This document shows, one piece after another, positions 245 to 31,591 of a stretch of 31,591 bases of DNA. Within the stretch, counting starts at the first letter, position 1. Each line of letters starts with the position of its first letter. Location of the stretch: positions 1-31,591 of the forward strand of contig JBCCQY010000107.1 in the NCBI GenBank assembly GCA_039208735.1, in the 5' to 3' direction. The position numbers were made by a program, and so were the translations under genes. The notes beneath the pieces were generated by a model, which ran no database searches, had not been told where the DNA came from, and worked only from the letters and a program-made list of their open reading frames with translations. This DNA is from Myxococcota bacterium. GTDB lineage: Bacteria > Myxococcota_A > UBA796 > GCA-2862545.

Positions 245-248
245 CTGA

Positions 249-2533: not shown

Positions 2534-2551
2534 GGCATCCCCATGGGCAGC

Positions 2552-5715: not shown

Positions 5716-5769
5716 GCTGTGTGGTATCCCGCTCCCGGAAAGGTATCGGGAGGCACAGGGACGGAAACG

Positions 5770-6342: not shown

Positions 6343-6346
6343 ACCC

Positions 6347-6640
6347 CTACATTGCCGCGATGACTTCAGGCAGGCCGCGAATCACGTCGTAGACGTCTAG
6401 CACGCTTTCGGCAGATTCCATCTGGGTCAGCACGTGGAGCGCCACGTAGCTGCCGTTGCGAGATGGACGTTCGGAGACTTCGAGCACCGAAGCCTCTCCG
6501 GCTGCCGCTCCCACCGCGGTGATCACGGTGGACCGGCTTTCCGGACGCACGACGATCCGAAAACGGTAGGGTCCAGGAAACTCGTGTTGGGATTCGAGGA
6601 GCGACAACACACGTTGCCGGTCGTCGGGCTGCGGATCCAT
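6347..6640 (-). CDS. DUF493/YbeD family protein
   Basis: 97 aa with LESQHEFPGPYRFRIV...SERPSRNGSYVAL...VLDVYD; GGAGAG RBS before ATG 6640. Confidence 0.85.
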   Translation of the reverse strand: MDPQPDDRQRVLSLLESQHEFPGPYRFRIVVRPESRSTVITAVGAAAGEASVLEVSERPSRNGSYVALHVLTQMESAESVLDVYDVIRGLPEVIAAM

Positions 6641-6709
6641 GGGTGCTCTCCACCGGTCCCGGGGGTAGCGTGTCTCTATCTGGTGGCGGCGCAGGAGGGC
6701 GGACACAGG

Positions 6710-8773
6710 ATGAGCGACACCATCACGGGCACCACCATCGCGGGCCGCTACCACGTCACAGGGCTGTACCGTCCAGGACGGATGGGTGACACCTACCTGG
6801 CGCGACGCATCGAAGATGATGCGCTCGTCTTCGTAAAGCTGCTCGACCCCGCCTACTTCGACCAGCAAGAGCGCGTGCGTCGTTTCGAACGCGAGCTTCG
6901 GATCACCCGGTCCATCCAGCATCCTGCCACCTTGTCGGTGCTCGATGCGGGCCGCGATGAACACGGGCCCTTCCTCGTCACGGAATACGTCCAAGGCGAG
7001 TCGCTGGCCGATATTCTCGCCGAACATGGCGCGTTGTCCGCAGATCGCGCCGCCCGGCTTGCCGCGCGCATCGCCTCAGCCCTGCATGCCGCCCACAACG
7101 TGGGCGTCATCCACCGCGACCTTGCCCCCACAAACGTGCTCGTGGGGCACGACGACCTCATCAAAGTGACGGACTTCGGCTTGTCCGTGCTGACCCAGCT
7201 CGACAACAGCGGCGCCGATGAGGTGACGGCCACGGGCGTCAAAATCGGCACGCCCTGGTACATGGCTCCCGAGTACATCACTGAGGAAAAGCTCGACGCC
7301 CGTGCCGATCTCTACGGGCTGGGGGTGGTCCTCTTCGAGATGCTCACGGGGTCGAAACCCTACACCGGGCGTCCTTACGAGGTGATGGACCTCCACGTCG
7401 ACGCGCCCATTCCGCACCCGCAGGCCAAGGCGGGAAACACCCCAGGGTGGCTCGACGCACTAACCGTGCAGCTCATGGCAAAGGAACCGGGTTTGCGACC
7501 GCCCTCCGCCATCGACGTCATCCGGCGCATCGAGGAAGGTCTTGGGGGCGCAGTCGTCGCCGGCCCCTCCCCGATGACGCCGTTGGGCGCGGGCCGCGTC
7601 GCCGAGCCACCGCCACGGATTCGCCGGTTGATCGGTAGCCACCTGCGCCAGGGCGCCAAGCAGGTCGCCGCGTCCCTCGAACGACGACGCTCCTACGTGG
7701 TTCAGCGCCTGGCCAATCCCTCGGTCGCCGCCGAGTTGGGTTGGCGACCGGGATGGCGGATCGTGCTGCCCGACGAGCCCGTCGATGGATTGCTCGAACC
7801 CGAGTTTTCGGCCGAGGTCAACCAGCGGCGTTTCTTCGCCTTCCCTCCTGGACAAACCACCCAAGCCGTCGAAGGGGTCACCTCGGGCGCCGATCCTGGC
7901 GCCACCTTGATGCGCGCCCCCGAGAACGTCGAAGCCTACTTCAATCCAGAAGAACCCTCCGCCGAAGCGCTGCACGACCTATGGATCCAGTCGCGCTACG
8001 AATTGCTGGAACGCCTTTGCCAAGCCACGCTTGAGGGCGGCTCCTCCGACCCAGCGGCCTTGGTGCTCAAGGGAGCGGCGCAGTACGAGCAGGGTCGTCA
8101 GGGCGAAGGATTGCGCTGGATCCAGCAATTCCACGACCGGCATGCGGCCTCCGCACCCGCGCCCTACCGCGCGGTCGCGCACTTCTACCTCGGTCTCGAC
8201 CGGTTGCAGTTTGGGCATCGACCATCCGCCGCGGAGCACTTTCGCCATGCGACGGTCCTTGGTGGCCTGTTGTCGGCGGCAGGCCGCCACGAGGAACTCA
8301 CGGGAAGCCGCCCCGATGTCACGCCGTGGGTCGGACGAACCTTCGCTCCCGCCACCCTTCCCCGCCAGGACACCGGTGCGCCCGTCGACGTGGTGGCGCG
8401 ATGCGAGCCGCTTGGACCCGACCAATTGCTCGCCGTCGTGTTTGCCGGGGGCCAGGAACGCACCGCTGACCATGGTCGAACCTTGCGCAGGTTGCACCGA
8501 CACCTCCGTGGGTTTCCATCCGTCCTCCCGGAGGCGTTGGTGGTCACGGCGATTCACGATGGGGACCCTGAGCCGCCCCTTCACCCCGCAGACGAAGCGC
8601 TCCGCGCGACCGACCGAGCCATCACGTGGCTCGTCGACCCAGCCGCACAATGGCATCGCGCGATTCACCCTGCCAACCTGCCGTGCGTGTACTTGCTCGA
8701 TGCACAGGCAACCTGCCGCTACCAGGGCCCGCTTTCTGGCGTAGGCCTTTGGGAGGCTTTGGCCGCCTCATGA
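6710..8773 (+). CDS. Hanks-type Ser/Thr protein kinase with C-terminal TPR-like and thioredoxin-like regions
   Basis: GRMGDTY, VFVKLL, RRFERE, HRDLAPTN, DFG, GTPWYMAPE, RADLYGLGVVLFEMLTG. Start at ATG 6710 after a GGAGG-containing leader. Confidence 0.88.
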   Translation: MSDTITGTTIAGRYHVTGLYRPGRMGDTYLARRIEDDALVFVKLLDPAYFDQQERVRRFERELRITRSIQHPATLSVLDAGRDEHGPFLVTEYVQGESLADILAEHGALSADRAARLAARIASALHAAHNVGVIHRDLAPTNVLVGHDDLIKVTDFGLSVLTQLDNSGADEVTATGVKIGTPWYMAPEYITEEKLDARADLYGLGVVLFEMLTGSKPYTGRPYEVMDLHVDAPIPHPQAKAGNTPGWLDALTVQLMAKEPGLRPPSAIDVIRRIEEGLGGAVVAGPSPMTPLGAGRVAEPPPRIRRLIGSHLRQGAKQVAASLERRRSYVVQRLANPSVAAELGWRPGWRIVLPDEPVDGLLEPEFSAEVNQRRFFAFPPGQTTQAVEGVTSGADPGATLMRAPENVEAYFNPEEPSAEALHDLWIQSRYELLERLCQATLEGGSSDPAALVLKGAAQYEQGRQGEGLRWIQQFHDRHAASAPAPYRAVAHFYLGLDRLQFGHRPSAAEHFRHATVLGGLLSAAGRHEELTGSRPDVTPWVGRTFAPATLPRQDTGAPVDVVARCEPLGPDQLLAVVFAGGQERTADHGRTLRRLHRHLRGFPSVLPEALVVTAIHDGDPEPPLHPADEALRATDRAITWLVDPAAQWHRAIHPANLPCVYLLDAQATCRYQGPLSGVGLWEALAAS

Positions 8774-9786
8774 ACCTCGACGACTTCAATCCCGATTCTG
8801 GAGCCGAGGATCCCCGTTTGCTCTTCGGGCTGCCCCATGGCCCCGAGCACGCCCGTGTGGTGGTGATCCCTGTGCCCTTCGAAGCCACGACCAGCTACGG
8901 CCATGGCACGTCGAACGCGCCGCGCCGCATCCTCGCCACGTCGGTCCAGGTCGACCTTCGCGACGACTGGGTCGGGGAGCCTTGGCGCGAGGGCATGGCG
9001 ATGCTGCCCATTCCCAAAGCCATCGAAGCGCTCGATGCAAAAGCGCGCGCGCTGATCGCGGAACGCACCGAGGAGGGCCCACCGGTCGATGACGCCGATC
9101 GACAGCGCGTCGAAACCATCAATGCGTGTGGGGCCCAGGTCAATGCATGGCTGCGAGCCCAGACCGACGCCTTGTTCGATCAAGGGCGGATTCCCGGTGC
9201 GCTTGGGGGCGACCACTCCATCAGCTTCGGGGCCATCGAGGCCGCGGCCGCTCGCGTACCCGGCTTGGGCCTCCTCCACATCGACGCCCATGCCGATCTG
9301 CGCGAGGCGTACCACGGTTACACCTGGTCGCATGCTTCGATCCTGTTCAACGTGCACGAACGGCTCGATGTTCCGAGCATCGTGAGCGTAGGCCTACGCG
9401 ATTACTCGCCCATCGAAGGTCGGCGGCTCGAAGAGTCACCTCGCTTTCATCCATTTACCGACCGGCAGCTCGCCGAACATCGCCTAGCGGGGCGCCCCTT
9501 CTCGGCCTTCATCGACTCGATTCTTGCCAAGCTTCCCGAGCACATCTGGATCACGTTCGACGTCGACGGTCTCGATCCCACGCTGTGCCCGAACACCGGC
9601 ACTCCGGTACCCGGAGGCCTGCGCTACGACGAGGTCAACGTGCTGCTGCACCGGGTTGCATCGGCGCGCCGCATCGTTGGATTCGACCTCACCGAGGTGG
9701 GGGACGGCGAATGGGACGCTAACGTCGGGGCTCGGCTGCTCTACAAGCTCGCGGGGCACGCCATCCACAGCCAGAATCGAGACTGA
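8770..9786 (+). CDS. Agmatinase / ureohydrolase (arginase family)
   Basis: GGDHSI, DAHADL, SHAS, FDVDGLDP..PNTGTPVPGGL, FDLTEV; ATGA overlap with the kinase stop. Confidence 0.9.
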   Translation: MNLDDFNPDSGAEDPRLLFGLPHGPEHARVVVIPVPFEATTSYGHGTSNAPRRILATSVQVDLRDDWVGEPWREGMAMLPIPKAIEALDAKARALIAERTEEGPPVDDADRQRVETINACGAQVNAWLRAQTDALFDQGRIPGALGGDHSISFGAIEAAAARVPGLGLLHIDAHADLREAYHGYTWSHASILFNVHERLDVPSIVSVGLRDYSPIEGRRLEESPRFHPFTDRQLAEHRLAGRPFSAFIDSILAKLPEHIWITFDVDGLDPTLCPNTGTPVPGGLRYDEVNVLLHRVASARRIVGFDLTEVGDGEWDANVGARLLYKLAGHAIHSQNRD

Positions 9787-9853
9787 CACCCGGGCGATAC
9801 CCACCCCGCCGCCCTGACGCCGAAGTGCCTTCGTCGAAATCGGAGGGGCTACC

Positions 9854-12586
9854 GTGGTTGCGTGGGTTTGCCTTTCGGCCTTCGCCGGGTCTGCCGGCGA
9901 GCGAGTCCATCCCCCCACGGTCGACCCGCTGGTCACCACAAAACGAAGCCCAACGCTCTCGGGCACGCTCGACCCTCGGAGCATCGCCCTCCGGGTTCGC
10001 ATCCGCGGCACCTATGCGCTGCCCGGAACCCAAGGCCTCCATCATGAAGCGGGACGCTGGACGCTCGACCTGGAAGCGGCGTGGTTGAGCCTTCCCGAGG
10101 GCCGCCATGACGTTGTGGTCGAGGCCCAGGGGCCCGATGGGCGTTGGGTCACCGACCCCACCCGATTCGAAGTCGAGGTCGACCGTACGCCGCCTCCTGC
10201 CCCTACGGTCACGGCCAAGCGCACCGCGGATTCACCATCCCACCTCGACGGCCACTACGATCCCCAACAGGCCAAGCTCCTGACCGTGACGGTGGCGGGC
10301 CGCCGCTTCCCACAGGAGCACAAGGCGCTACGGCTTGATCCGGCCCGTCGGCGGTGGCGACTTGATCTGCGAAAGGCAGGCCTGCGCTTGCCCTCCGGCC
10401 ACCATGAAGTCATCGCTGTCGTGACCGATGCCGCGGGCCTCAAAGCGGCGGACACCACCCGACTCGAACTCGTCATCGTCACGGACCGGGATGGTGACGG
10501 CGTACCTGCCGAGGTCGAAGCGCGCTACGGCACACGCGACGACCGGGTGGACACCGATCACGATGGACTCCCTGACCGTGCCGAAATCCGTTGGTGGGGT
10601 ACCGACCCCCAGATTGCCGACACCGACCGCGATGGCCTCACCGACGGCGAAGAGGCGCTTCGCGACACCGACCCCCAAAGCCCCGACACCGACGGCGACG
10701 GTCTGTCGGACGGGGCCGAGATTCGCACGGACCCCCGGACCGCTGACACCGACCACGACGGTCTCGCCGATGGAGACGAGGACGTCAATGGCGACGGCCA
10801 CACCGACGAGCAAGAGACCGACCCGACCAATCCCGACTGCGATCACGATGGACTGCCCGATGGCGCCGAGTACGTGTTTGGGAGTCATCCCCTTTGGCCG
10901 GACACCGACGGCGGCGGGCAGCCCGATGGAGCCGAGGTTCTCGAGGGCCGCGATCCGACCGATCCCCGCGATGATCCCGTGGACCAAGACGGCGATGGCC
11001 TCGACGATCCGTCCGAAGTTCGGCGCTACGGGACGTCACCCCAGCTGGCCGATACCGACGGCGACGGCCTTGACGATGGCGTCGAGGTGCGCCGAACCCG
11101 GACCGATCCCACCCGTCGCGACTCGGATCGCGATGGATTGCTCGATGCCGAGGAGGACAAGCGAGGAACCGCCCCGACCAACGCTGACTCCGATGGGGAC
11201 GGACTTATCGATGGGGCCGAGGTCTTCCTTTGGTACACCGATCCCACCCATCGCGACACCGACCGCGACGGGTGGACCGATCACCACGAGGTCACCACGA
11301 CACACACGGACCCCACCCTCGCGGACACCGATGGTGATGGAATCATCGATCCATCCGAAGGTGCGTTCGGGAGTGACCCATACCACCCCGACTCCGATGG
11401 GGATGGGCGACTCGACGGAGACGAGGTCTACCTCATCGCCACCGATCCCGCGGACTGGGACACCGATGCCGACCAAATCGGCGACGGCGCAGAACTTGCG
11501 GTCGGCCGGTCGCCCTACGTTCCCGAGGTCCGAGGGAATCGGCCGGACCGTGACAAAGACGGGCTGTGGGATGGGGATGAAGCAGCCTGGGGTACCGATT
11601 CGGAGCGCTCCGATACCGATGGCGACGGGCTGTCGGACTTTGATGAGATCGATGGTGTGGGCTCAGACCCACGGCTCGCCGACACCGATGGCGATGGGTG
11701 GACGGATGGCGCAGAGCTGCTGGTTCACCTGACCGATCCGCGACGCATCGACACCGATGGCGATGGCCTTTCCGATCCCTCGGAACACTTCGTGCACGGC
11801 ACGTCGCCAAGCCTCCACGACACCGACGGGGACGGGCTCTCCGATGGCATGGAGTTGCGGATCTGGGGCTCGGATCCCCGTCGGATCGACTCCGATGACG
11901 ATGGCCTTCCGGATGGTGAAGAGGTTCGCATCGGCAGTGAGCCGCGCGCTCGCGATACCGACCATGATGGTCTGTCGGACTACGATGAGGTGCACGTCTA
12001 CTTCACCGACCCTGACCTGCCCGACACCGACAACGGCTCGGTGCTCGATGGGGTCGAGGTGGAGCGCGGGACGGACCCTCGCGACTACATCGACGACATC
12101 CGACCTGACCCGTGGGATGGGGATGGAGATGGCCTTTCGTGGGAGCAAGAACGCCTCTTGCGGTCCTCACCAGACCGGTTCGACACCGATGATGACGAAC
12201 TCGACGATGGCTTCGAATGCCGGATTAGCCGAACCCGACCTCAGGATCCGGACTCGGATGATGATGGCTGGTCGGATGGCGAGGAACGGCGGCGGGGTAC
12301 GCATCCCCTGCGGGGCGATACCGATGGTGACGGGCTCCCAGACCCCGCGGAGGGTCCTCTCGGAACGGACCCGACCCATCCCGACACTGATGGGGACCAG
12401 CTGCCCGATGGCGAAGAGCTGTTTGTGACCCGAACCGACCCGACCAATCCTGATACCGATGCAGATGGACTGGCCGATGCCATCGAAGTGCACTGGTGGA
12501 TGTCGGATCCGCTGAACCTTGACTCCGATGGCGACGACGTTCCCGACGCGGCCGAGGTCGACCAAGGAACGTTGGGGAGTCCTTGA
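9854..12586 (+). CDS. Secreted/surface protein: two Ig-like repeats + ~30 Ca-binding DxDxDG (TSP3/PA-like) repeats
   Basis: Short hydrophobic N-terminus; two ~100-aa PTV...RWxLDL..LPxGxH repeats; then D[TS]DxDGLxDGxE...TDP units of 20-24 aa; GGAGGGG RBS. Confidence 0.85.
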   Translation: MVAWVCLSAFAGSAGERVHPPTVDPLVTTKRSPTLSGTLDPRSIALRVRIRGTYALPGTQGLHHEAGRWTLDLEAAWLSLPEGRHDVVVEAQGPDGRWVTDPTRFEVEVDRTPPPAPTVTAKRTADSPSHLDGHYDPQQAKLLTVTVAGRRFPQEHKALRLDPARRRWRLDLRKAGLRLPSGHHEVIAVVTDAAGLKAADTTRLELVIVTDRDGDGVPAEVEARYGTRDDRVDTDHDGLPDRAEIRWWGTDPQIADTDRDGLTDGEEALRDTDPQSPDTDGDGLSDGAEIRTDPRTADTDHDGLADGDEDVNGDGHTDEQETDPTNPDCDHDGLPDGAEYVFGSHPLWPDTDGGGQPDGAEVLEGRDPTDPRDDPVDQDGDGLDDPSEVRRYGTSPQLADTDGDGLDDGVEVRRTRTDPTRRDSDRDGLLDAEEDKRGTAPTNADSDGDGLIDGAEVFLWYTDPTHRDTDRDGWTDHHEVTTTHTDPTLADTDGDGIIDPSEGAFGSDPYHPDSDGDGRLDGDEVYLIATDPADWDTDADQIGDGAELAVGRSPYVPEVRGNRPDRDKDGLWDGDEAAWGTDSERSDTDGDGLSDFDEIDGVGSDPRLADTDGDGWTDGAELLVHLTDPRRIDTDGDGLSDPSEHFVHGTSPSLHDTDGDGLSDGMELRIWGSDPRRIDSDDDGLPDGEEVRIGSEPRARDTDHDGLSDYDEVHVYFTDPDLPDTDNGSVLDGVEVERGTDPRDYIDDIRPDPWDGDGDGLSWEQERLLRSSPDRFDTDDDELDDGFECRISRTRPQDPDSDDDGWSDGEERRRGTHPLRGDTDGDGLPDPAEGPLGTDPTHPDTDGDQLPDGEELFVTRTDPTNPDTDADGLADAIEVHWWMSDPLNLDSDGDDVPDAAEVDQGTLGSP

Positions 12587-12663
12587 TGAAGCCTGGCTGA
12601 TCCCGCGAAGCCTTCAGCCCTCCGGTGACGGCCCGATGAGGGATCAGGGCGGAGGACCTAGCC

Positions 12664-13638
12664 ATGGACGGGGGAGCAGAGGTCGAGACCAGCGAAGCAC
12701 AGGTCGACCTGGAATCGGCGACCTCGCTGATCGGCGCCGACTTGTCTGGACGAGATTTATCGGGCGTCGATTGGTCTCATCGGGACTTGTCCAGAGCGAA
12801 CCTCACGGGGGCCTCGCTCGTGGGGGCCAAGCTTGAAGGGGCGGTGCTGTTCCAGGCCCGGCTGGATGGCGCAGAACTGGCTGGCGCCAACCTCTCAGGC
12901 GCCAACCTGGCCGAAGCGAGCGCCCTACGAGCCGGACTCGGCCGGACCGGCCTTCAAAGCGCAAACCTCGCGGGAGCCCAGCTTCAAGGCAGCACCCTGT
13001 CCGGTGCCGACCTCACCGATGCCGACCTTCGCGCGGCGAGCCTCGACGACGTGCGGCTGTTGCGGGCCAAGCTCACCCGGGCAGACCTCGGTCGGGCCAG
13101 TCTCCGCCGGGTTGAAATGGCCGACTGCAACGTCTCGGGGGCGTCGTTTCGTCACGCGGACCTCCGTGACAGCCGGATTCGTGGGGCCTCAGGCTACGAC
13201 ACGACCGATTGGGTGGGGGCGGACTTCCGAAATGCCGACCTGTGTGGTTCGTACCTGCTCCGTCGCTTCGCCCACGACCAGAACTTCATCGAGGAGTTCA
13301 AAAGCCAATCGCCTGCTCACGCCTTTGCGTACGTGGTGTGGAAGGTAACGAGCGATTGTGGTCGTTCGACCAGCCGATGGGCACTGTGGACCTTTGCTCT
13401 TGCCTTTGGCTACGCGCTGCTCTACACCCGTCTGCCCATCAACTTTGGGCCCTACGAAACCGTACTTTCGCCTTTGTACTTCTCGGTCGTGACGCTGACC
13501 ACGCTTGGCTACGGGGACGCCCTTCCGACCAACATCATTTCTCAGCTCGTCGTGATGTCGGAGGTGTTCGTTGGGTACTTCATGCTCGGCGGCCTGCTGA
13601 CCCTGCTCTCCAACAAAATGGCCCGTCGGGCCGAGTAA
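12664..13638 (+). CDS. Pentapeptide-repeat protein fused to a 2-TM K+ channel pore domain
   Basis: A[DN]LxG-type pentapeptide repeats over the first ~200 aa; C-terminal TM, LYFSVVTLTTLGYGD selectivity filter, TM; GGAGG RBS. Confidence 0.9.
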   Translation: MDGGAEVETSEAQVDLESATSLIGADLSGRDLSGVDWSHRDLSRANLTGASLVGAKLEGAVLFQARLDGAELAGANLSGANLAEASALRAGLGRTGLQSANLAGAQLQGSTLSGADLTDADLRAASLDDVRLLRAKLTRADLGRASLRRVEMADCNVSGASFRHADLRDSRIRGASGYDTTDWVGADFRNADLCGSYLLRRFAHDQNFIEEFKSQSPAHAFAYVVWKVTSDCGRSTSRWALWTFALAFGYALLYTRLPINFGPYETVLSPLYFSVVTLTTLGYGDALPTNIISQLVVMSEVFVGYFMLGGLLTLLSNKMARRAE

Positions 13639-13653
13639 GTCGCCGGAGTCCAC

Positions 13654-14475
13654 ATGTTGCGAGGGACGAAACGTTGGTTTGCCCGCACGCCTCGGGCCGA
13701 ACTCACCGAAGCCCTCGGTGAGTCGAAAATCCCGAGCTTTCGCTCCAACATCATGCGGCTGCTCAAGCAGCTTCGCGACGAAAGCGCGACGCACTCCATC
13801 ATCGCGCGCACCGCTGAAGCGGATCCAGGTCTCACCGTTGAAATCATGCGTACGGTCAACTCGCCCGCATACGGCCTGCACCGGAAGGTGAACAGCGTTC
13901 AGCACGCCATCAGCCTTCTCGGCCGTTCCGAACTCGAGACGCTGACGCTCACGGTAGCCGCTCGTAAGGTCATTCCCCCCAGTCGCCACGCAGACCGTCG
14001 CTTTTGGCATCTCGCTGCCCGCCGCGCGGCCATCGCGCGGGCCCTGGCCGAAAAGGTCAGCCCCTCCTTGGCGAGCGTGTCGTTTTCCGCGGGTCTGCTC
14101 CAAGACCTGGCGATTCCTTTGCTCGCCGATGCACGTCCGTCCTACGCCGAACTGCTGCGCGAGACCGAAGGGGAAGCGCTCGTGGCCGTGGAGCGCGAGA
14201 CGTACGGCTTCGATCACCCTGAGGTTGCGGGCTGGCTCTGCGAATGCTGGGGGTTTCCGGAGGCCTTGCAGGAGGCCATCTCGAGTCATCACGGAGGTGC
14301 GGACGCACCAGTACCCGTCCAACTCGTTGCGTTGATCGACCGCGCCAACCTCGACCACCCCGAAGAGATCATCGAGGAAGCGCACGATCGATTTGGGCTA
14401 TCCCGCGAGCTCATCGACCAGGCCGTCGAGGCAGGACGTCGAGATGGTGACGCGTTGGCGCTGTTGCTGAAGTAG
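13654..14475 (+). CDS. HDOD domain protein
   Basis: DPGLTVEIMRTVNSPAYGL..KVNSVQHAISLLG, FW, AGLLQDL, ERETYGFDHPEVAGWL..WGFP...HH. Confidence 0.88.
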   Translation: MLRGTKRWFARTPRAELTEALGESKIPSFRSNIMRLLKQLRDESATHSIIARTAEADPGLTVEIMRTVNSPAYGLHRKVNSVQHAISLLGRSELETLTLTVAARKVIPPSRHADRRFWHLAARRAAIARALAEKVSPSLASVSFSAGLLQDLAIPLLADARPSYAELLRETEGEALVAVERETYGFDHPEVAGWLCECWGFPEALQEAISSHHGGADAPVPVQLVALIDRANLDHPEEIIEEAHDRFGLSRELIDQAVEAGRRDGDALALLLK

Positions 14476-14478
14476 CGC

Positions 14479-14991
14479 TCAGCCGAGCGGCCAGGCGCCA
14501 AAGTGCTCGAGTCGATGAAAGTTAGGCCCGTCACCCGGCACCGGAGCCCACGCAAAGAACCGCCGCTTCGGTCCCACGCCCGCAATCCGAAAGGCGTTGG
14601 CCGTCCGCCGGTCCGCGGGCAAGTGGCGCTTTGCAATTCGAGCCCGGCCCGTCCAACGATCGCCTTGAATGGTGGGAGCAAACTCGATGGTGATGCCCTT
14701 GTCGACCGCCTGACGAATCCCCTCGAGACGCAGGACCCAGTGATGGCCGTGGGGTGAAAGCTCGATCTCGGTGTAGGTCTCGCCCTCCCCGACCACAAAG
14801 AGTTCGACGACTTCATGTTCCCAGAGTCGGTCGGTCGGACCGATGGGCGCGGTGGGAGCCGGGTCGCCCTGGAACGGGGCATCGACATCGATGACGAGTT
14901 CGTCGCCCTCCCAAGCGAGGCGCAAGCTGGCGCATTCGTCGGTCGGAAGCGGCGTCCCGTCCCACAATTTGTCGATGGAAAGCTCGGTCAT
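14479..14991 (-). CDS. UPF0462/C4orf33-like protein (DOMON/CBM9-like beta sandwich)
   Basis: WDG..P; APF.GDP; LWEHEVVELF; YTEIELSPHGHH.VL.L.G.R; W.G.A; NAF.I.G; PNFHRLEHF. These blocks are colinear with human C4orf33 as I recall that sequence. Confidence 0.75.
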   Translation of the reverse strand: MTELSIDKLWDGTPLPTDECASLRLAWEGDELVIDVDAPFQGDPAPTAPIGPTDRLWEHEVVELFVVGEGETYTEIELSPHGHHWVLRLEGIRQAVDKGITIEFAPTIQGDRWTGRARIAKRHLPADRRTANAFRIAGVGPKRRFFAWAPVPGDGPNFHRLEHFGAWPLG

Positions 14992-16085
14992 CAGCGTCGC
15001 TCCGGGCGAACAGTTGCGATGTCATCGGCCACCGCCCTCAACTGGTCGCCAAAGGCTTCCAGTGCGCTTTGGTGGAGGATGGCCTCGGTCTCGCCCACCG
15101 CCGGCAACGGCGTCGAAGCCGTGATGGTGGTCTCGAGAACCGGCTTACGAGAGGGTGGACAGTACAGCTGGACCGTGGCCGAAATGTCCGTCGCGCTGCC
15201 CGAGGGCTCGAGCCGTGCGCCCAGCTTTTCGCTGTAGTTGACCACCACAATGCCCGTATTGGGATTGTTGCCGTAGGCATCTTGTGGATGAGGAGAGGGG
15301 CCGCCGCGCAGGTCGACCATCAACGTCCGAAGCACCTGAAAGTCCCTGCGCAATTCGACGTTTAGGGTTTGATCGATCTCCTTGCGAACCGCGTAGGTCA
15401 GCGCCGCCCGGTCCGCGAATTCCACAGGCGCTTCGCCCAAGGTCACCACCGGTTGGATTCGGGTGACCCGCAATCGGGCCATCCAGTCCAACGCATCCAA
15501 ACGGTAGCGGCCATCGGCGAATCGATCGAGATAGCGCTGGTACGCCGTCGGGGTGTCACCCTCCACAGCCCGGGCCCACGCGGCTTCTTCACGTGCTTGG
15601 CGTGCATCCTCGGCCCACCGGCCCTCGGGGTAGCGCACGAGATAGCGCCCCCATGCATCCTCGGTGCCTTCGGTCACCGCAAGACGGTGCCACGCTTCCT
15701 CGATACGACGCTCCACCTTGGCTTTTCGCTCACTCGATGGGTACTGCACCAGGAAGGCAAGGAGGGCTTCGGGCGTCCCTACGGCCTCCGCTTCGGCCAG
15801 CGCCAAGGCTTCGGCCCGCTCCCGTGCCTCGGCGGCATGGGGCCCCGTGGGATGCGCGCCCAGATAGCTGCCGTAGGCCCCTGGCGTGTCGGTGGCTTTG
15901 GCGAAGATCCAGTCGAGGCGTTCGGCCCGTTCCATCGCAAGGGGAACCTTCGACGAACCCGGGTTGGCCGACACAAAGCTGCGGTAGGCCTCGCCCGTGT
16001 TCAACGACTGGGCCCGTCGCCAGTCGCGTCCTGCACACGCCGTCCATGCAGCAAGAACGCACATCATCGCGACGAATCGGATCAT
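14991..16085 (-). CDS. Putative lipoprotein with ~5 helical AY..YL..YP.G..A..AR repeats
   Basis: Signal peptide ending AWTAC; repeats AYRSFVSANP, AYGSYLGAHPTG, LLAFLVQYPSS, AWGRYLVRYPEG, AYQRYLDRFADG; TGATG overlap with the downstream gene. Confidence 0.75.
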   Translation of the reverse strand: MIRFVAMMCVLAAWTACAGRDWRRAQSLNTGEAYRSFVSANPGSSKVPLAMERAERLDWIFAKATDTPGAYGSYLGAHPTGPHAAEARERAEALALAEAEAVGTPEALLAFLVQYPSSERKAKVERRIEEAWHRLAVTEGTEDAWGRYLVRYPEGRWAEDARQAREEAAWARAVEGDTPTAYQRYLDRFADGRYRLDALDWMARLRVTRIQPVVTLGEAPVEFADRAALTYAVRKEIDQTLNVELRRDFQVLRTLMVDLRGGPSPHPQDAYGNNPNTGIVVVNYSEKLGARLEPSGSATDISATVQLYCPPSRKPVLETTITASTPLPAVGETEAILHQSALEAFGDQLRAVADDIATVRPERR

Positions 16086-25812: not shown

Positions 25813-26907
25813 ATGGCCCTTCAGGCCGGCATCGTTGGCTTGCCGAATGTCGGAAAGTCAACGCTCTTCAACGCGCTCACGGCCGCGGGAGCGGAGTCGG
25901 CGAACTATCCGTTCTGCACCATCGAGCCCAACGTTGGCGTCGTGGCGGTTCCCGATCCGCGACTCAACCAGATCACAAGCAAGATCGAGACTCAGAAGGT
26001 GATTCCTGCCGCGGTCGAGATCGTGGACATCGCTGGCCTGGTGCGAGGCGCGAGTAAGGGCGAAGGGCTCGGCAACCAGTTCCTGGGTAACATTCGCGCG
26101 GTCGATGCGATTCTGCACGTGGTGCGATGCTTCGACGACGCCGATATTACGCACGTCGACGGCGGCGTCGATCCGATTCGCGACATCGAGACCATCAACC
26201 TGGAACTGATCTTCAGCGACCTCGAAGCCGCCGAGCGCCGTTTCGACAAGTGGAAGAAGGCGGCGAAGTCAGGCAACGCCGAGGCGGTGAAGGAGCGCGA
26301 CCTCGCCGAGAAGCTGGTGGGACTGCTTGAAGCAAACCAGCCCATCCGGGGCGGCGAGTTTACCGAAGACCAGCAGACCCTGTTGAAACAAGCCCAGATG
26401 CTCACCGACAAGCCCGTTTTGTATGTGTGCAATGTCGATGAGGACGGGCTTGCGGAGGACAACGACTACGTAAAGGCGGTTCGCGAACATGCGGCGACGG
26501 AAGGCAGCGGTGTCGTCGTGCTGTGCGCGAAGGTCGAGTCCGAGCTCTCGGAGCTGGATGACGAAGATCGGGAAGTCTTTCTCACAGATCTCGGGCTTGC
26601 GGAGCCCGGGCTTTCCGTACTTGCGCGCGGGACCTATGAGCTGCTCGGGCTGCAAACGTATTTTACGGCGGGCGAGAAAGAGGTTCGGGCCTGGACGATT
26701 GGACAGGGGTGGAAGGCGCCGCAGGCGGCTGGGGTGATTCACAGCGATTTCGAGCGTGGGTTCATTCGGGCCGAGGTGTACACCATTGCCGACTTGTTGG
26801 AACATGGGTCAGAGGCATCCATGAAGGCGGCGGGACGAATTCGGTCGGAAGGGAAAGAGTATATTGTCAAGGATGGCGACGTGATGCATTTTCGCTTCAA
26901 TGTATAG
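25813..26907 (+). CDS. ychF: Redox-regulated ATPase YchF (Obg family)
   Basis: [51 protein letters not shown] domain ending [21 protein letters not shown]. Confidence 0.98.
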
Positions 26908-26936
26908 GCGCGCCGCTCAGCCCCATCTGGACAGGA

Positions 26937-26988
26937 TCGTTACCGCCACCGAAGGCGGATTGGTAACGAATCGGTAACACGCTATGCT
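26937..26988 (+). promoter_or_regulatory. Predicted sigma70-type integrase promoter overlapped by GGTAAC repeats
   Basis: TTGGTA (26960-26965)-N17-TATGCT (26983-26988). GGTAAC occurs at 26962 and 26973 (11 bp apart) and inverted as GTTACC at 26939; GGAGG RBS at 26997. Confidence 0.55.
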
Positions 26989-27010
26989 TTGCTGACGGAG
27001 GCAAAGCGGC

Positions 27011-28252
27011 GTGCGATTGACAGATGGGGTGTCGGGACACCTCGATCCGACGAGCGGTCGGGTCAAAGTGATGTGGCGGAACCGCGAGCAACAGGCCGAC
27101 GGTTCGATCAAGCAGCGACAGCGCAAACTGACATCGGATTCGTTGCCCGAAGCCCGCGAGCTTGCCGTCCAGATTGCGGCATCGTTGAAGAGGACGGGAT
27201 GGTTCGAACTCGGGCAATCGGCGTTCCGACCGGCGGTGGAGGACCTCGAGCGTGTATTCAAGGCCTACCTCGACCACAAGGTGAAGTTCGAGCGGGTGCG
27301 ACCCAATACACGAAGCAACCTCGCGCGTTCGTTCCAACGGTTCGGGCGTGGCATGCGTTCGTTGCTAGCGTTGTCGAATGCCGAAGTGATTCCCGCTGAA
27401 GCGATGACGCTCGAGAACTACCGACGTTGGGTCATGTGGGCCGGTTCGGTGGGGACGAGAGCAGGTGGAGCGTACGGTCCAGGCACAATCTACCAAAGTG
27501 CGCACACTGTATTGGATGCGTGGGGTTGGGCTGCAGACCAAGGACGTTGGATGTCGCTGCCGGCGCCTCCGTACAATCGCCGTGCCCATTTGCCGCCGAG
27601 TCCGCAGTACGGCCCACCGGCCGACACCGCGACCTGGGCGGAAATGGATGCAGCAATCGCGCGCATCCGAGCGGACCGTGGCGGGCCTACGCCGAATGTA
27701 GGGACTGCAAAGTACTCGGCGATTATCCAGCGGTTTACGGGGTTGCGCCTGTTCCAGGCGATCGGCATGCATGCAGAAGACATCGACATTGGCGGAAACA
27801 CGTTGATCATTCGACGAGGAAAGAGCAGGCGTGAGGCGGCATTAATGCGACGCATTGCGGTGTCGCCCCATCTTTGGGTCGCGCTCGAGCCTGTTCTGGC
27901 CCACGTCACGACCGGGCCGCTGTTTCCCGATCGGAGTCGTCCTGACTCGCCAATGGTGAGCTACCGCAACACGACGCGGTATGTGACCCGTGCTTGGAAC
28001 GATGCAATCGAAGACGGTCTCGCGCGAATAACGGTGGTTCGTCCCCCCAACCGAGACAAAGGAAGCCCGACGCATTGCTTCCGTTCAGGCTTCATGGCTC
28101 AGTTGGCGGCGAATGGGGTGAGTGACGCAGTGCTCGACCACCTTGTAGGGCATGCGCCGGGCAGTGTAAGAGGACAGCACTACACAACACCAAGCCTTGA
28201 ACTTCAGCATCAAGCGGTTTCGAACATTCCTTCCCTATCAGCCGGCACGTGA
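27011..28252 (+). CDS. Tyrosine recombinase/integrase, full length
   Basis: Catalytic residues R (RFTGLR), K (RGKS), HxxR (HCFR), H (LVGH), Y (GQHY); N-terminal arm-type and core-binding regions present. Confidence 0.92.
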   Translation: MRLTDGVSGHLDPTSGRVKVMWRNREQQADGSIKQRQRKLTSDSLPEARELAVQIAASLKRTGWFELGQSAFRPAVEDLERVFKAYLDHKVKFERVRPNTRSNLARSFQRFGRGMRSLLALSNAEVIPAEAMTLENYRRWVMWAGSVGTRAGGAYGPGTIYQSAHTVLDAWGWAADQGRWMSLPAPPYNRRAHLPPSPQYGPPADTATWAEMDAAIARIRADRGGPTPNVGTAKYSAIIQRFTGLRLFQAIGMHAEDIDIGGNTLIIRRGKSRREAALMRRIAVSPHLWVALEPVLAHVTTGPLFPDRSRPDSPMVSYRNTTRYVTRAWNDAIEDGLARITVVRPPNRDKGSPTHCFRSGFMAQLAANGVSDAVLDHLVGHAPGSVRGQHYTTPSLELQHQAVSNIPSLSAGT

Positions 28253-28322
28253 ACTCGAACCGACCACACCGCGGTCCCAACCGAAGCCAGTCGCAGCGGT
28301 GATGACTAGCTCACAGCCGGGC

Positions 28323-28513
28323 TCACCGCTCGTCCTGGGGGGCGGCTCCGCCTTCCCCTGGGGCTCCGCCCCCTGGCGCTAGACCTCCCGCCACACGAAA
28401 CCAAGGTCGGCGAAGCGGTCGCCGGGCGAGTACGCGTCGCGGAACGCGGCCCGCACGTTGCGCGCATTGCCGAACCAGCTGCCACCTCGGCCCACTCGCT
28501 CCGGGCCCGCAGT
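28323..28513 (-). pseudogene. C-terminal fragment of an FGE-sulfatase/CLec-fold protein, DGR variable-region-like
   Basis: The minus strand from 28513 reads TAGPERVGRGGSWFGNARNVRAAFRDAYSPGDRFADLGF. Restoring one C after GGTTTC gives the canonical LGFR and then VAGGLAPGGGAPGEGGAAPQDER* (TGA 28325-28323). There is no start codon or upstream FGE sequence. Not in the ORF track. Confidence 0.8.
28338..28372 (-). other. Tandem GC-rich hairpins with GGA triloops (DGR target-like cis element)
   Basis: Minus strand GGGGC-GGA-GCCCC (28372-28360) and GGGGaaGGC-GGA-GCCgcCCCC (28358-28338), 24 nt past the LGF codons. Confidence 0.55.
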
Positions 28514-28847
28514 AAACCCTGCTCGGGCCGAAGCGCCGAGGCCAACAAGGTCAGCAAACGGTCTACCAACGTGCGCCGTTAAGACTCAGAGACATCAGGA
28601 CCTTCGTCCCAACTCAATGTGGTCCAATGACGGCTCGGCACCTGACCTGGCACTAACGCGCACGCTGGACCTTCCATGACGGGCGAGGCGGTCCCCACTC
28701 GCTCCCAAAGGTGAACCAAGGGGCTTCTCACCCCGTCCTCAGGCTGCGGAGCATAGAATCCGAGGTCGTTCAAGTAAGGGTTGGCCCGTTGCGAGCAAGG
28801 CGTTGATGGCATGAACCGTCGGTTTTATCGAAATCGTGCCAAGATGG

Positions 28848-28888
28848 GGCCTACGACTTGGTGGAGGTGGTGCGGAGGGTGCCAGCGT
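28848..28888 (+). repeat. 41-bp direct repeat, copy 1 (integrase 3'-end remnant)
   Basis: GGCCTACGACTTGGTGGAGGTGGTGCGGAGGGTGCCAGCGT, 38/41 identical to 30202-30242; encodes AYDLVEVVRRVPA versus AYDLAEVVGRVPV. Confidence 0.9.
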
Positions 28889-28907
28889 TGCATGCCGACC
28901 ATCGAGA

Positions 28908-29582
28908 TCAGTCGTGTGCAACTGGGTAGCCTATGGCAACTGCATTGGAGACCGCGGCGGGCCAGTCCACTGCAGTGGGCAAAGCATCGAACTGCTTGCG
29001 ACTGAGAGGGGAGAGTCCGAAGAAGTGTTGTAGCACCTCATCCTCCATCCCAACCTCGAAGTAGTCTTTACAGTGCTCTAGGTACCCCTGTCGACCATGC
29101 AACAGTGGTGAAGTCAAATGAGTCGCTCCGTCCGGATCAAGGCCGTTTGGTAGCTCTAGGTAGTCGTGTGTCCAACCGTGACCATCGCCGAGGTTCCAGG
29201 TACAGAAGGTCGTGCAGTCAACTGCGAACGCTGGCTCCTTCAATAGAGCCATTAGGCAATTGGGCAAAAGAGAGAAGAGACCAGGCCAGAGCCTTGGTGG
29301 TTCTTCACGAAAGGGCGACATCTGACTCTCATGGTCGAATCCCTTGAGCCAAGCACTTCCGTCACCGAACACGATGAAGAAGTGGTCCCCGCTACCGTTC
29401 TGCATGGATGCTAGCCCTTGACGAGGAGCCCAGGCCGAGTCGAACCTGTAGACGCTGCTCGCCTCGTCCATCGCCAACATGGAATCTAGCATAGCCGCGG
29501 CTTGAAACCACTGACGAGCTTCAGCTGAAGATGGCAGCAGTTGAACGACTTCTCGAATCGACACGAATTCCTCCTTGGGCAT
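28908..29582 (-). CDS. Conserved hypothetical protein, probable orphan immunity protein
   Basis: 224 aa with blocks AMLD..L, Y.FDS.W, ASM.NGSGD..FIVF, KGFDHES.MSP, WPGLF, EPAF, DG, DY.E, IGYP, a pattern I recognise from a widespread uncharacterised family. AT-richer than the host genes; GAGG upstream. The immunity role is inferred from context. Confidence 0.75.
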   Translation of the reverse strand: MPKEEFVSIREVVQLLPSSAEARQWFQAAAMLDSMLAMDEASSVYRFDSAWAPRQGLASMQNGSGDHFFIVFGDGSAWLKGFDHESQMSPFREEPPRLWPGLFSLLPNCLMALLKEPAFAVDCTTFCTWNLGDGHGWTHDYLELPNGLDPDGATHLTSPLLHGRQGYLEHCKDYFEVGMEDEVLQHFFGLSPLSRKQFDALPTAVDWPAAVSNAVAIGYPVAHD

Positions 29583-29599
29583 CTGCCACGAGCCTCATA

Positions 29600-30271
29600 C
29601 TGGTTCAGCTGATGTGGCGATGGGCGGACGAGAGCGACCGGTGGCCGGGTCGCGTCCCAAGACCGAGGCGCATCGAGACGCCGCGGAACGCGCCGAGACC
29701 GCCGAAAGCACCCATGTGGCCGGAGATGGACGCCTGCATCGCGGCGGTGAAGACACCGTGGATTGCCTCCTTGTTGACGTTCCTCCGCTTCACCGGGCTC
29801 CGGGTCGGCGAGACCATGATGTTGCGCCGGAACGATCTCGACATGGAGCGGAGGCTCCTGACCATCGAGCCGGGGATCACAAAGAACAAGCGTGGCCGCA
29901 TGATCTCCGTGAGCGCTCACCTCATCGAAGCGCTCGACGCATGGCCGAGGGACACCGTCTGGCTGATCCCGTCGCCGGCCAGGGGTCAGGACAGGACGCG
30001 GCAACCGCGACCCCGGGAGGTGGCTCTCGCGTGGCAGGACGCTGGCGTGCCGGAGCGGGTGTGGCGTGGAGTGCCGCATCATGCCTTCAGGAAGGGCTTC
30101 AAGAGTGGGCTCCTCCGAGCCGGGGCCGCGCCCGACGCCGTCGACCACCTGCAGGGGCACGTAATCTCGGGCAGTCGGGAGCGCTACATCGACCCATTCG
30201 TGGCCTACGACTTGGCGGAGGTGGTGGGGAGGGTGCCAGTGTCAATGGAACCAGCATCACTGGGGTCGTGA
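29600..30271 (+). pseudogene. 5'-truncated tyrosine recombinase (catalytic domain retained)
   Basis: MWRWAD..RW, WPEMDACIA, RFTGLR, TKNK, HHAFRKGF, DHLQGH, RERY. Homologous to 27011-28252 but missing about the first 160 aa. The ORF-track ATG at 29531 lies inside the opposite-strand gene. Confidence 0.85.
30202..30242 (+). repeat. 41-bp direct repeat, copy 2 (3' end of the truncated integrase)
   Basis: GGCCTACGACTTGGCGGAGGTGGTGGGGAGGGTGCCAGTGT; also supplies the TAG stop (30205-30207) of the opposite-strand immunity gene. Confidence 0.9.
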
Positions 30272-30648
30272 GGAAGGGTCCACCCCACGCTGAACTCCAC
30301 GTTGTGGCAATCAGCAACCACCTCGGCGCCATATGAGGCCTCGAGGACAAAGACGAAGTCACCCTTGAAGGACCAAGTGTCCCCATGTCCAAGGCGCTGG
30401 AGCAAGGCGCTGCTGACCCTGGTCTTCGCTTCTGCTACAGGGTGCACGAGCGCGTCAAGGATGATGTTCCCGTTCCGGAAGTTCGAAACGCACATCGCAC
30501 AGACGCCCTCAAGGGTCATCGTCCTCCTCGTTCCATCGACGTCCCGGTAGAGGAGATGGACCTCGTCATCGGAGACGTTCACGACTGCATCAAGGCTGCC
30601 ATCGTGATGGCGTTCCAATACCTGCCCATGCTCGTTGGTCCGCACCAT
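30205..30648 (-). CDS. Putative cognate immunity protein of the Hint toxin
   Basis: ATG 3 nt after the toxin stop; small beta-rich protein with HDG.L, L.GV, F..GNII.D, L.ASYG...A.C; overlaps the integrase 3' end by 67 bp. Confidence 0.78.
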   Translation of the reverse strand: MVRTNEHGQVLERHHDGSLDAVVNVSDDEVHLLYRDVDGTRRTMTLEGVCAMCVSNFRNGNIILDALVHPVAEAKTRVSSALLQRLGHGDTWSFKGDFVFVLEASYGAEVVADCHNVEFSVGWTLPHDPSDAGSIDTGTLPTTSAKS

Positions 30649-30651
30649 CGT

Positions 30652-31590
30652 CTACCCTCCGTCGAAGCCGCGGGGTGGCGGAGGGTCGTCATCCGTCGGC
30701 GGCCGGGATGGGCCTCGGTCCGTCTTGGTGGGTGGCCCACCATCCGCAGGACGGCCCCAGTCGTGAGAATGGTCTACCGAACCCTGGACGTCAACGTCGC
30801 CCTTACCCCTCTCCCCAGGATGTGGGAGGTCGCGGTCTGTCTTCGGGAAGCCATCGTCGCCATAGGTGCGAGACTGCTTCTTGGCACGAACAGTAGTACC
30901 AGGGTCGCCCCTGAATGGTGGACTGGCGGCATCAATATCCGTCACGGGTCCACACCCGTTGTGCACCAGAACCCCGTCACCATCGCCACCCGGCGCACGG
31001 ACGTAGTAGTTGTGGGCGCCCTCGACCTCGAAGTTGAAGACCTCGAAGTCGCCCTCGCGCCACGCCAAGGACGCGACGCGAGACTCACCGCCACCGACCG
31101 TGCGAAGGACACTCCCGACCTCGAGGTCGCCCATCGCCACATAGTCGCCAACCTCGGGAACCCAGAACGGATGCTCTGGGGTGCCCGTGATCACCTCGGA
31201 ACCGTCTGCCCCGGTGACTACGAGGTCGATGACCACGTCCGACTGCCGCACGTGGGTCTGGTAGACGCGCCCGAGCACGTCACCAGACCAACGGACCTCG
31301 ATGTCACCATCGCCGTCGAAGTCGGCGGTGTCGAAGACCCGGCCTTGGAATGCGAAGCGCTCGCCCGCCTCTACCTCCGACAGCCGCCAGTGCCCAGCGC
31401 CCTCATCGCCACCGAGCACGAGCACCCACTCGTCGGTGCCCGGCACCTGGGTCGCGGCCTCCGCCGCCCACGTCGCATTGGCTTCAGCCAGGTCCTTGAC
31501 CGTGGCCGAGCCGCGGTCCTCGACCCCAGCGTCGGTCCACCGATGGAGCCGACCGTCAGCGAGCCAGGTGTCCCCGACCTCGAGCTCGGC
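30652..31590 (-). CDS. Polymorphic toxin, 3' part: pretoxin Hint domain + ~101-aa C-terminal toxin domain (5' end outside window)
   Basis: The frame is open to the window end (AELEVGDTWLADGR...). Hint blocks ITGTPEHPFW and VFNFEVEGAHNYYV...VLVHN|GC. The C-terminal domain has GDPG..Q.RTYGDDGFPKTDRDLPH...HSHDW...R. Confidence 0.88.
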   Translation of the reverse strand, partial: AELEVGDTWLADGRLHRWTDAGVEDRGSATVKDLAEANATWAAEAATQVPGTDEWVLVLGGDEGAGHWRLSEVEAGERFAFQGRVFDTADFDGDGDIEVRWSGDVLGRVYQTHVRQSDVVIDLVVTGADGSEVITGTPEHPFWVPEVGDYVAMGDLEVGSVLRTVGGGESRVASLAWREGDFEVFNFEVEGAHNYYVRAPGGDGDGVLVHNGCGPVTDIDAASPPFRGDPGTTVRAKKQSRTYGDDGFPKTDRDLPHPGERGKGDVDVQGSVDHSHDWGRPADGGPPTKTDRGPSRPPTDDDPPPPRGFDGG

Positions 31591-31591
31591 C

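What the first reader, a model, noticed from the sequence alone, without database searches (positions are those of the whole stretch)
26908..31591. Layered integrase-toxin/immunity island at ychF: a possible immunity-gene accretion system
Seen: three pieces of one tyrosine-integrase subfamily, all on the + strand (complete 27011-28252, 41-bp 3' remnant 28848-28888, 5'-truncated 29600-30271). Each is followed by convergent - strand cargo: a DGR-like fragment, an orphan immunity-like gene, and an immunity gene with its Hint toxin. In two cases the immunity gene ends at or inside the integrase 3' end. Established: polymorphic toxin loci accumulate orphan toxin/immunity modules, usually by recombination in the toxin stalk. 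Inference: here the module boundary is the integrase 3' end. That suggests a family of integrative elements built as int -> <- immunity <- Hint toxin, stacking at ychF and decaying to their immunity genes, or recombinase-driven cassette capture.
Basis: partly seen in the sequence, partly recalled or inferred. Interest (0 to 1): 0.85.

Follow-up and report, generated by a model that had tools for sequence, protein, structure and literature searches.

The report
Integrase tail collects toxin-immunity pairs
One integrase family in these marine bacteria has its gene cut at the same base in every copy and fused there to the ends of many unrelated genes that sit behind Rhs-type toxin tips and are predicted to be their immunity genes, which likely marks a mobile element that picks up toxin tips and would swap them onto host toxins; the neighbouring ychF integrase is an ordinary island integrase.

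Summary
The pieces are real, but there are two integrases, not one. intA (27011-28252) belongs to a ychF-targeting clade: 15 of 24 homologue loci lie behind ychF, none with a Hint gene, and a second att core lies on contig C212. intB (29601-30271) and the remnant at 28848 belong to a separate clade.

In 21 of 21 intB-clade junctions (7 genomes, 2 metagenome contigs) conservation ends inside one proline codon, and the flanks share no more than chance. In 18, a convergent ORF ends within 33 nt; 13 of these follow a Hint toxin tip. Pfam found no Hint, Rhs or immunity family in 39 ORFs beside 30 sister integrases. A second fixed edge lies in the Hint linker and shares a motif with the first. One complete unit was seen: VapE, resolvase, RHH, integrase, immunity gene, 2794-aa Rhs.

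Best reading (0.55): an integrative element whose integrase cuts at its own 3' end, loads toxin-immunity pairs and replaces Rhs tips, leaving stacked orphans as in this window. Rival (0.25): illegitimate recombination plus selection. ychF is incidental, the 'DGR' is unsupported, and no activity, circle or hybrid site was shown.

The parts
25819..26907 (+). ychF (host gene, target of the intA island)
   Evidence: PF06071, PF01926
26890..26907 (+). att core of the ychF island (last 18 nt of ychF); a copy with 2 mismatches lies on C212:12039(-)
   Evidence: further copies downstream of ychF in closed genome G013
26939..26978 (.). GGTAAC arm-like repeats beside the att core, also on the island side of the C212 copy
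   Evidence: sequence; role inferred
27011..28252 (+). intA, ychF-clade tyrosine integrase; not part of the toxin-linked clade
28357..28498 (-). frameshifted C-terminal fragment of an FGE-like gene family (3 copies on C120, 1 on C22); not shown to be a DGR
28848..28883 (+). site A, copy 1: 36-nt stub of the intB-clade 3' end; fixed edge after 28883
28908..29582 (-). imm1: orphan, predicted immunity gene (start may be 29564); kept whole with a ribosome-site-like stretch, while its toxin is gone
   Evidence: no Pfam/NCBIfam/PHROG hit; Atlas clusters of 211-235 aa, one auto-named SMI1/KNR4; junction sequence
29601..30237 (+). intB: catalytic half of the toxin-linked integrase (R, K, HxxR, H, Y present), ending in site A copy 2; fixed edge after 30237
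30238..30271 (+). non-homologous integrase tail read from the antisense of imm2
30205..30648 (-). imm2: predicted cognate immunity gene, 3 nt behind the toxin stop; its last 11 codons and stop come from the integrase antisense
   Evidence: broken homologue on C123; no homologue among 25 candidates
30652..30957 (-). variable C-terminal toxin tip, no family hit
30958..31591 (-). conserved Hint C-part plus part of the family insertion; site B and the Rhs body lie beyond the contig end
   Evidence: PF07591 E 9e-11; 68-73% aa to C3 and C153

Best explanation
The window holds two stacked, decayed copies of a toxin-tip module whose integrase gene is cut at one fixed base and fused to the end of a predicted immunity gene, and this module is likely a small integrative element that loads toxin-immunity pairs at that cut and would graft them in frame onto resident Rhs toxins. 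Shown: the fixed edge (site A), its fusion to many unrelated gene ends, a second fixed edge in the Hint linker (site B) joined in frame to different Rhs genes or to non-Hint DNA, a motif shared by A and B, and one complete unit (B, Hint C-part, tip, immunity gene, A, integrase, RHH, serine resolvase, VapE). Inferred: (1) the circle enters an Rhs gene at B, or by homology in Hint, so the host toxin gains the element's tip and the old tip and immunity gene are pushed behind the element; (2) the integrase then cuts at the left edge of A and joins it to a loosely specified site just behind the displaced immunity gene, so the element leaves with a new pair; (3) homologous recombination between the conserved Hint and integrase flanks shuffles pairs among copies; (4) deletions remove old tips and most of the integrase but spare the immunity gene, as at 29582-29601. 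The stack here sits inside an ordinary ychF island run by intA.
For: Edge precision: majority base 20-21 of 21 at positions 0-1 against 6-13 of 21 to the left. Shared flanks over 210 pairs match chance (54 vs 54.8 expected for >=1 nt; 2 vs 1.0 for >=4 nt). The proline wobble base is 9 of 21, while other four-fold wobble bases of the site are 16-20 of 20-21. Sister integrases mostly keep a native C-terminal tail; the clade has lost it. 18 of 21 junctions have a convergent ORF ending within 33 nt, among them Imm27 and two Imm8 genes over the Pfam cut-off. 13 of 32 Hint modules have A downstream, 16 do not and 3 are too short; 8 of 9 modules with B have A. Controls: no Hint match at 40 non-clade loci, 11 with a tRNA or tmRNA within 300 nt; no Hint, Rhs or Imm family in 39 control ORFs. 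B: 10-12 of 12 at positions 1-18, at most 8 of 12 to the left. The two-block B motif has 7 matches with <=4 mismatches among 18.8 million positions: 3 B, 2 A, 2 background. On C153 the B module entered in frame about 190 residues into a diverged resident insertion. A shared non-Hint left partner of B occurs in G021 and in proteins P0121, P0124, P0128, P0139.
Against: No hybrid A/B site among 22 A and 12 B copies, no circle and no empty site were seen. The DNA on the far side of B was found in 1 of 154 genomes, and a VapE close to the element's only in that same genome, so the element's second end rests on one genome plus four protein sequences that were found by searching with B. The two G061 modules have A without B; one A copy (G047) is not beside a toxin. 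The protein step at B is modest (0.41 vs 0.62 identity, 21 pairs). A 78%-identical Hint C-part without A exists (G045:C552). The model does not explain why the partner site always hugs the stop codon; a trimming ratchet should leave by-products (A joined to Hint or to a tip) that were not seen. The cut is also at the last conserved residue of the protein. This genome holds no complete intB (C153 is cut by its contig start). The junctions come from related genomes and are not fully independent; two pairs share an immunity family.
Confidence: 0.55

Rival explanations
1. No site-specific step. A conserved integrase and a conserved Hint block flank a variable cassette. New pairs arrive by homology-facilitated illegitimate recombination and deletion, and selection for the last essential integrase residue and for an intact immunity gene squeezes both sides together. 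Stacks are ordinary displacement arrays.
For: The edge is at the last conserved residue. Integrase stubs vary from 25 nt to full length. Orphan genes keep their ribosome-site-like stretch while the old tip is gone (window, G061), as modelled for Vibrio arrays (PMC5361080 passages). All six read-through genes use the one frame that stops after 11 codons, which shows selection acting at the junction.
Against: Random breakpoints should leave shared bases next to the edge in relatives, above all the wobble base; none are seen. A second fixed edge (B) with unrelated left partners, and its likeness to A, are not predicted. Classical Rhs orphans have core fragments of variable length (PMC2935791 passages).
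Confidence: 0.25
2. The mobile unit is only integrase-RHH-resolvase-VapE, with A as its end. It inserts just behind toxin-immunity operons, for example at the foot of their terminator hairpin. The toxins are hosts, not cargo.
For: Sister integrases point their 3' end at a target, a tRNA or tmRNA in 11 of 40 loci. A sister element shares the resolvase and RHH genes without toxins (G128). A structure-guided target would explain gaps of 0-24 nt.
Against: Hint C-parts beside A are about as similar across genera (70-82% nt) as the integrases (78-88% nt), which fits joint transfer. No common motif was evident behind the genes of 16 A-less modules, read by eye with crude gene calls. Six junctions leave the gene without its own stop.
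Confidence: 0.12
3. Pairs are captured through RNA: a reverse transcriptase copies trimmed toxin-immunity transcripts, whose ends lie near the stop codon, and the copy is joined to the A edge.
For: Gaps of -1 to 11 nt in 11 of the 12 genes with their own stop. A group II intron-like fragment follows the A stub on C3. The genome has 3 RT matches.
Against: No RT in the one complete unit; the C3 case is single; no untemplated tails are evident at the junctions.
Confidence: 0.05

Closest known systems
Rhs C-terminal displacement arrays (Jackson et al. 2009, PMC2935791) and Vibrio cholerae effector-immunity arrays (Kirchberger et al. 2017, PMC5361080)
   Same: New tip in front, old tip or orphan immunity gene pushed behind; a circular intermediate was proposed for Rhs.
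   Different: [quoted passage not shown] Here each module ends in the same integrase at one base, and many start at one base.
rAID-1 of Bacteroidales (10.1101/471110) and XerC/D-linked polyimmunity loci (Zhang et al. 2012, PMC3482391)
   Same: Tyrosine recombinase beside accumulating immunity genes; a repeated sequence between genes.
   Different: rAID has a 5' recombinase, co-directional low-GC orphan genes and non-coding repeats. Here cargo is convergent, includes the toxin tip, and the repeat is the integrase's own coding end.
Integrons (features recalled from memory)
   Same: Works like cassette accretion: unrelated ORFs end a few bases from a recurring site.
   Different: Not an IntI (26.9 bits against a cut-off of 265); no attC-type structure shown; cargo lies at the integrase 3' end.
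Genomic islands integrated at the 3' end of ychF (ychF as a target recalled from memory; two papers listed were not read)
   Same: intA: integrase behind ychF, duplicated 18-nt core, tandem islands.
   Different: None found; this part is ordinary.
SitA lipoprotein toxins of myxobacteria (PMC5562445, PMC8546572; search listing and start of abstracts only)
   Same: Stand-alone relatives of the module have a lipoprotein-like signal and a variable tip.
   Different: They carry a Hint C-part; delivery by outer membrane exchange was not tested.

Membership tests
Rhs/Hint polymorphic toxin system | Hint domain followed by a variable C-terminal tip | tested here: met
   PF07591; different tips behind the same Hint block
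Rhs/Hint polymorphic toxin system | Rhs delivery body in the same ORF | tested here: inconclusive
   present on C153, C3 and G021; beyond the contig end for the window's gene
Rhs/Hint polymorphic toxin system | Immunity gene directly downstream, orphans further on | tested here: met
   by position; Imm27 and Imm8 in relatives; the window's two genes have no family hit
Rhs/Hint polymorphic toxin system | Toxicity and neutralisation | not testable with these tools
   needs expression tests
ychF genomic island (intA) | Intact tyrosine integrase directly behind the target gene | tested here: met
ychF genomic island (intA) | Second copy of the target 3' end | tested here: met
   C212:12039(-), 2 mismatches in 18 nt, with arm-like repeats and a broken second integrase; the link to this contig is inferred
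Integron | IntI-type integrase | tested here: not met
   TIGR02249 26.9 bits, cut-off 265
Integron | attC hairpin behind each cassette | tested here: inconclusive
   A folds weakly (-6.2 and -8.0 kcal/mol over 70 nt), B -14.2; no shuffle control
Integron | Array on the 5' side of the integrase gene | tested here: not met
   cargo is convergent at the 3' end
rAID-1 | 5' XerD-like recombinase with two or more co-directional low-GC genes | tested here: not met
   convergent layout; GC 0.55-0.67; criteria read
rAID-1 | Repeated sequence between immunity genes | tested here: met
   A stubs follow each gene in the window and in two of three modules of G002:C151, but they are coding-derived
Diversity-generating retroelement | Template repeat paired with the variable region, near an RT | tested here: not met
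   no match of the FGE ends on the RT contigs C42, C145, C283; the genome is 93% complete, so 'not found'
SitA-type lipoprotein toxin | N-terminal lipobox | tested here: inconclusive
   simple pattern in 20 of 62 stand-alone relatives; internal in the Rhs fusions
SitA-type lipoprotein toxin | Transfer by outer membrane exchange | not testable with these tools
   needs cells

The most novel reading that the evidence does not exclude
A selfish 'tip-swapping' element: its tyrosine integrase uses its own C-terminal coding end as a one-sided capture site, splices its toxin tip in frame into the host's Rhs gene, and leaves carrying the host's old tip and immunity gene. It would be the enzyme-driven circular carrier of Rhs tips that was postulated in 2009 without an integrase, and a model for how gene cassettes are cut close to a stop codon. 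Displaced tips may stay active as lipoprotein toxins from an internal signal peptide.
Probability: 0.3. Interest if true: 0.92.

Novelty: new variant of a known kind. Interest (0 to 1): 0.72.

Why it matters
How polymorphic toxins gain new tips, and how orphan immunity arrays grow, has been put down to homologous or illegitimate recombination; the papers read here state that no integrase was known for the step. This family offers a named enzyme, two short sites and base-level predictions, so the question can be tested with plasmids in a laboratory strain. It also bears on how cassettes come to end within a few bases of a stop codon.

Tried and rejected
One subfamily for all three integrase pieces: rejected. 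ychF as the family's target: rejected; it is intA's. DGR: no template repeat; FGE-like immunity proteins exist (abstract of 10.1101/2021.05.21.445229), but the fragment's role is unknown. Microhomology between the integrase antisense and the Hint N-terminus: not the junction used. Direct A x B recombination: no hybrid seen. B as the target of an A-ended element: predicts Hint-N joined to A, seen in 0 of 21.

Searches that gave nothing: viral contigs (no site A, no integrase, one weak Hint match); imm2 homologues; Atlas search of the Hint insertion. A single-sequence model of imm1 had pLDDT 34.6, so no fold search was run. Three other runs hold small shares of the window. One contig in the run from a second study joins 30237 to 31019 with unknown DNA between, at 85% likeness; this fits another family member but is weak. 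Earlier scan notes: nothing by sequence or place. Supplements were not read; Additional File 1 of PMC3482391 and Fig. S4 of 10.1101/471110 may bear on novelty.
Full report
SETTING. The window is the whole contig C107 of a 9.4-Mb, 288-contig genome, 92.7% complete with 6.2% contamination. The probable source run is labelled marine metagenome. I did not determine the lineage.

OBSERVATION. One contig of the probable source run spans 25918-29635 without a difference, and others cover 29620-30160 and 30186-31589 (725 pieces were not shown). That run may be the source, so this is not independent, but it gives no sign of a chimera. The 41-nt repeat is significant (E 2e-8); 36 nt of it are the family sequence.

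TWO INTEGRASES. intA and intB align at 30%. Of 24 intA homologue loci, 15 lie directly behind ychF, including the best 14, and none has a Hint match within 1.5 kb. In a tree of 49 rows the seven ychF integrases form one side of a 100/100 branch, and the six intB-type rows form a 100/99 clade nested among relatives. The last 18 nt of ychF recur on C212 with 2 mismatches, between GGTAAC repeats like those at 26939-26978 and a broken second ychF-type integrase. The closed genome G013 has further core copies downstream of ychF. So ychF carries ordinary tandem islands; the physical link to C212 is inferred. intA is followed by a frameshifted FGE-type gene end with relatives on C120 and C22. No template repeat was found, and none of these ends matches the three RT contigs.

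SITE A. A 35-nt probe from the intB 3' end has 7 copies in this genome at 0-5 mismatches and the next hits at 10. A 33-nt pattern matched in 5 of 49 family genomes. I collected 21 junctions with 30 nt of flank from 7 genomes and 2 metagenome contigs, and left out C5, whose contig ends 2 nt past the edge. The majority base is 20-21 of 21 at the first two positions and 6-13 of 21 in the twelve positions outside. Over 210 pairs, shared flanks are at chance (at least 1 nt: 54 observed, 54.8 expected; at least 4 nt: 2 and 1.0). The edge falls between the second and third base of the proline codon of 'VVGRVP': that wobble base is 9 of 21, while other four-fold wobble bases in the site are 16-20 of 20-21. 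Relatives at 40-56% identity mostly carry a native tail of 10-20 residues after this proline; clade members carry unrelated tails. In 18 of 21 junctions a convergent ORF ends at the site: 12 with their own stop -1 to 24 nt from the edge, and 6 reading on to a stop 33 nt inside the integrase. Two had flanks too short to call, and one (G047) is not beside a toxin. Named families among them are Imm27, Imm8 twice, ankyrin, Sel1, DUF416, and below cut-off DUF4275 and MafI. The window's two genes have no family hit, so 'immunity' rests on position and, for imm1, on an Atlas lead.

ENRICHMENT. Of 32 Hint modules examined, 13 have A within 1.3 kb downstream (one marginal), 16 do not and 3 are too short. 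In this genome the three insertion-type Hint toxins have A and the two plain Hint genes do not. None of 40 non-clade integrase loci (some duplicates, some short) matched the Hint probe, and 11 have a tRNA or tmRNA within 300 nt. For 30 distinct control loci with at least 1 kb downstream, 39 ORFs picked by a crude composition score gave no Hint, Rhs or Imm family; short genes may have been missed.

SITE B. Toxin-side conservation begins at a second edge, in the linker after the Hint N-block (codons A-A-S-T-D-G). A pattern for it matched in 4 of 154 genomes of the order, all of which also have A; G013 has a degenerate copy. Among 12 DNA copies, positions 1-18 are 10-12 of 12 and positions to the left at most 8 of 12. 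Left partners are: Hint N-blocks of different Rhs genes in frame; a diverged resident insertion on C153 and 36 extra codons on C3, both in frame; the upstream region of a Uma2 gene (twice in G001); an A stub; and, in G021, the region upstream of VapE, whose translation resembles the left partner in four database proteins. A and B share two 13-nt blocks 18-19 nt apart. With up to 4 mismatches the B blocks occur 7 times among 18.8 million positions: 3 B, 2 A, 2 background (blocks chosen after the fact). Relative to the motif the two edges are 8-9 nt apart, close to the 6-8 bp overlap of tyrosine recombinases (recalled).

COMPLETE UNIT AND ARRAYS. G021:C8 reads, on the toxin strand: 2794-aa Rhs, B, Hint, EndoU tip, MafI-like gene, A, integrase, RHH-like gene, serine resolvase, VapE, then B, Hint, Ntox10 tip, Imm27 and a degenerate A stub. 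G001:C103 has resolvase, RHH-like gene, integrase and a broken module. G002:C151 stacks three modules, and G061:C682 repeats the window's layering with unrelated genes. In the window and in G061 the orphan gene keeps a ribosome-site-like stretch and a stop codon just upstream, and the old tip is gone. Integrase pieces range from 25 nt to full length; five end at 33-41 nt, which I cannot explain.

MECHANISM. I commit to an integrative element that enters Rhs genes at B, and whose integrase cuts at the A edge to pick up the displaced pair (0.55). The fixed edges, flanks, motif and layout are shown; every enzymatic step is inferred. Against it: no A/B hybrid, circle or empty site; the far end found in 1 of 154 genomes; a close VapE in that genome only (a stricter search whose counts are a floor); G061 modules lack B; the step at B is modest at protein level (0.41 vs 0.62); nothing explains the closeness to stop codons. 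Rivals are illegitimate recombination with selection (0.25), a minimal element that targets operon ends (0.12) and RNA-templated capture (0.05).

LITERATURE. [quoted passage not shown] Abstract and outline only: 10.1101/2021.05.21.445229. Listing only: SitA papers, ychF papers. Searches for this architecture returned 1 paper, 0, 0, 6, 1, 5 and 4; none of those read describes it. The library lacks most subscription papers, and no supplements were read.

VERDICT. Interest 0.72.

Noticed in passing
P0142, P0145, P0161, P0165, P0168, P0170, P0184: A large stand-alone family of 320-470 aa proteins: signal or lipoprotein-like peptide, the roughly 190-aa insertion domain, Hint C-part without the N-terminal block, variable tip. 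The same lipobox-like motif persists inside the Hint insertion of many Rhs toxins.
   Followed up: partly
L003 (G000:C212) 12040-12992: A CRISPR-like array on the island side of the second ychF att core.
   Followed up: no
L010 region and G000:C120 8600-10930, C22 67030-67190: Three tandem FGE-like gene ends about 1 kb apart on C120 and one on C22, with a shared GC-rich tail; no template repeat found.
   Followed up: partly
L002 (G000:C3) 142090-142790: A group II intron-like RT fragment begins about 44 nt into the A stub, followed by an orphan tip fragment and a small gene.
   Followed up: no
L033 8258-8900, L057 1659-2570, L224 6330-6480: A Uma2 (PF05685) gene recurs next to integrase fragments and site B in G001 and G000:C7, perhaps a variant element end.
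   Followed up: partly
L051 (G021:C8) 100-15200: A block of unnamed genes with a 1697-aa methyltransferase/helicase (DarB-like PHROG hits) upstream of the Rhs gene; possibly another mobile element.
   Followed up: partly
L138 (G128:C218) 4685-7542: A sister element (55% integrase, resolvase, RHH-like gene) also has a duplicated integrase 3' stub, followed by a convergent IrrE-like gene and a tmRNA.
   Followed up: partly
L133 590-645 and L213 behind the immunity-like gene: Two A-less modules in different genera share a short sequence behind the immunity-like gene, a different recurring end.
   Followed up: no
L131 (G013:C1) 8386-10528: An IS66-like element splits the Hint insertion of the Rhs gene; a similar one lies behind a second Rhs toxin (L219).
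   Followed up: no
window 29800-30230, run X4: Summed contig depth reaches about 1000 over the integrase end in a microbial-mat run: the family appears abundant and diverse there.
   Followed up: no
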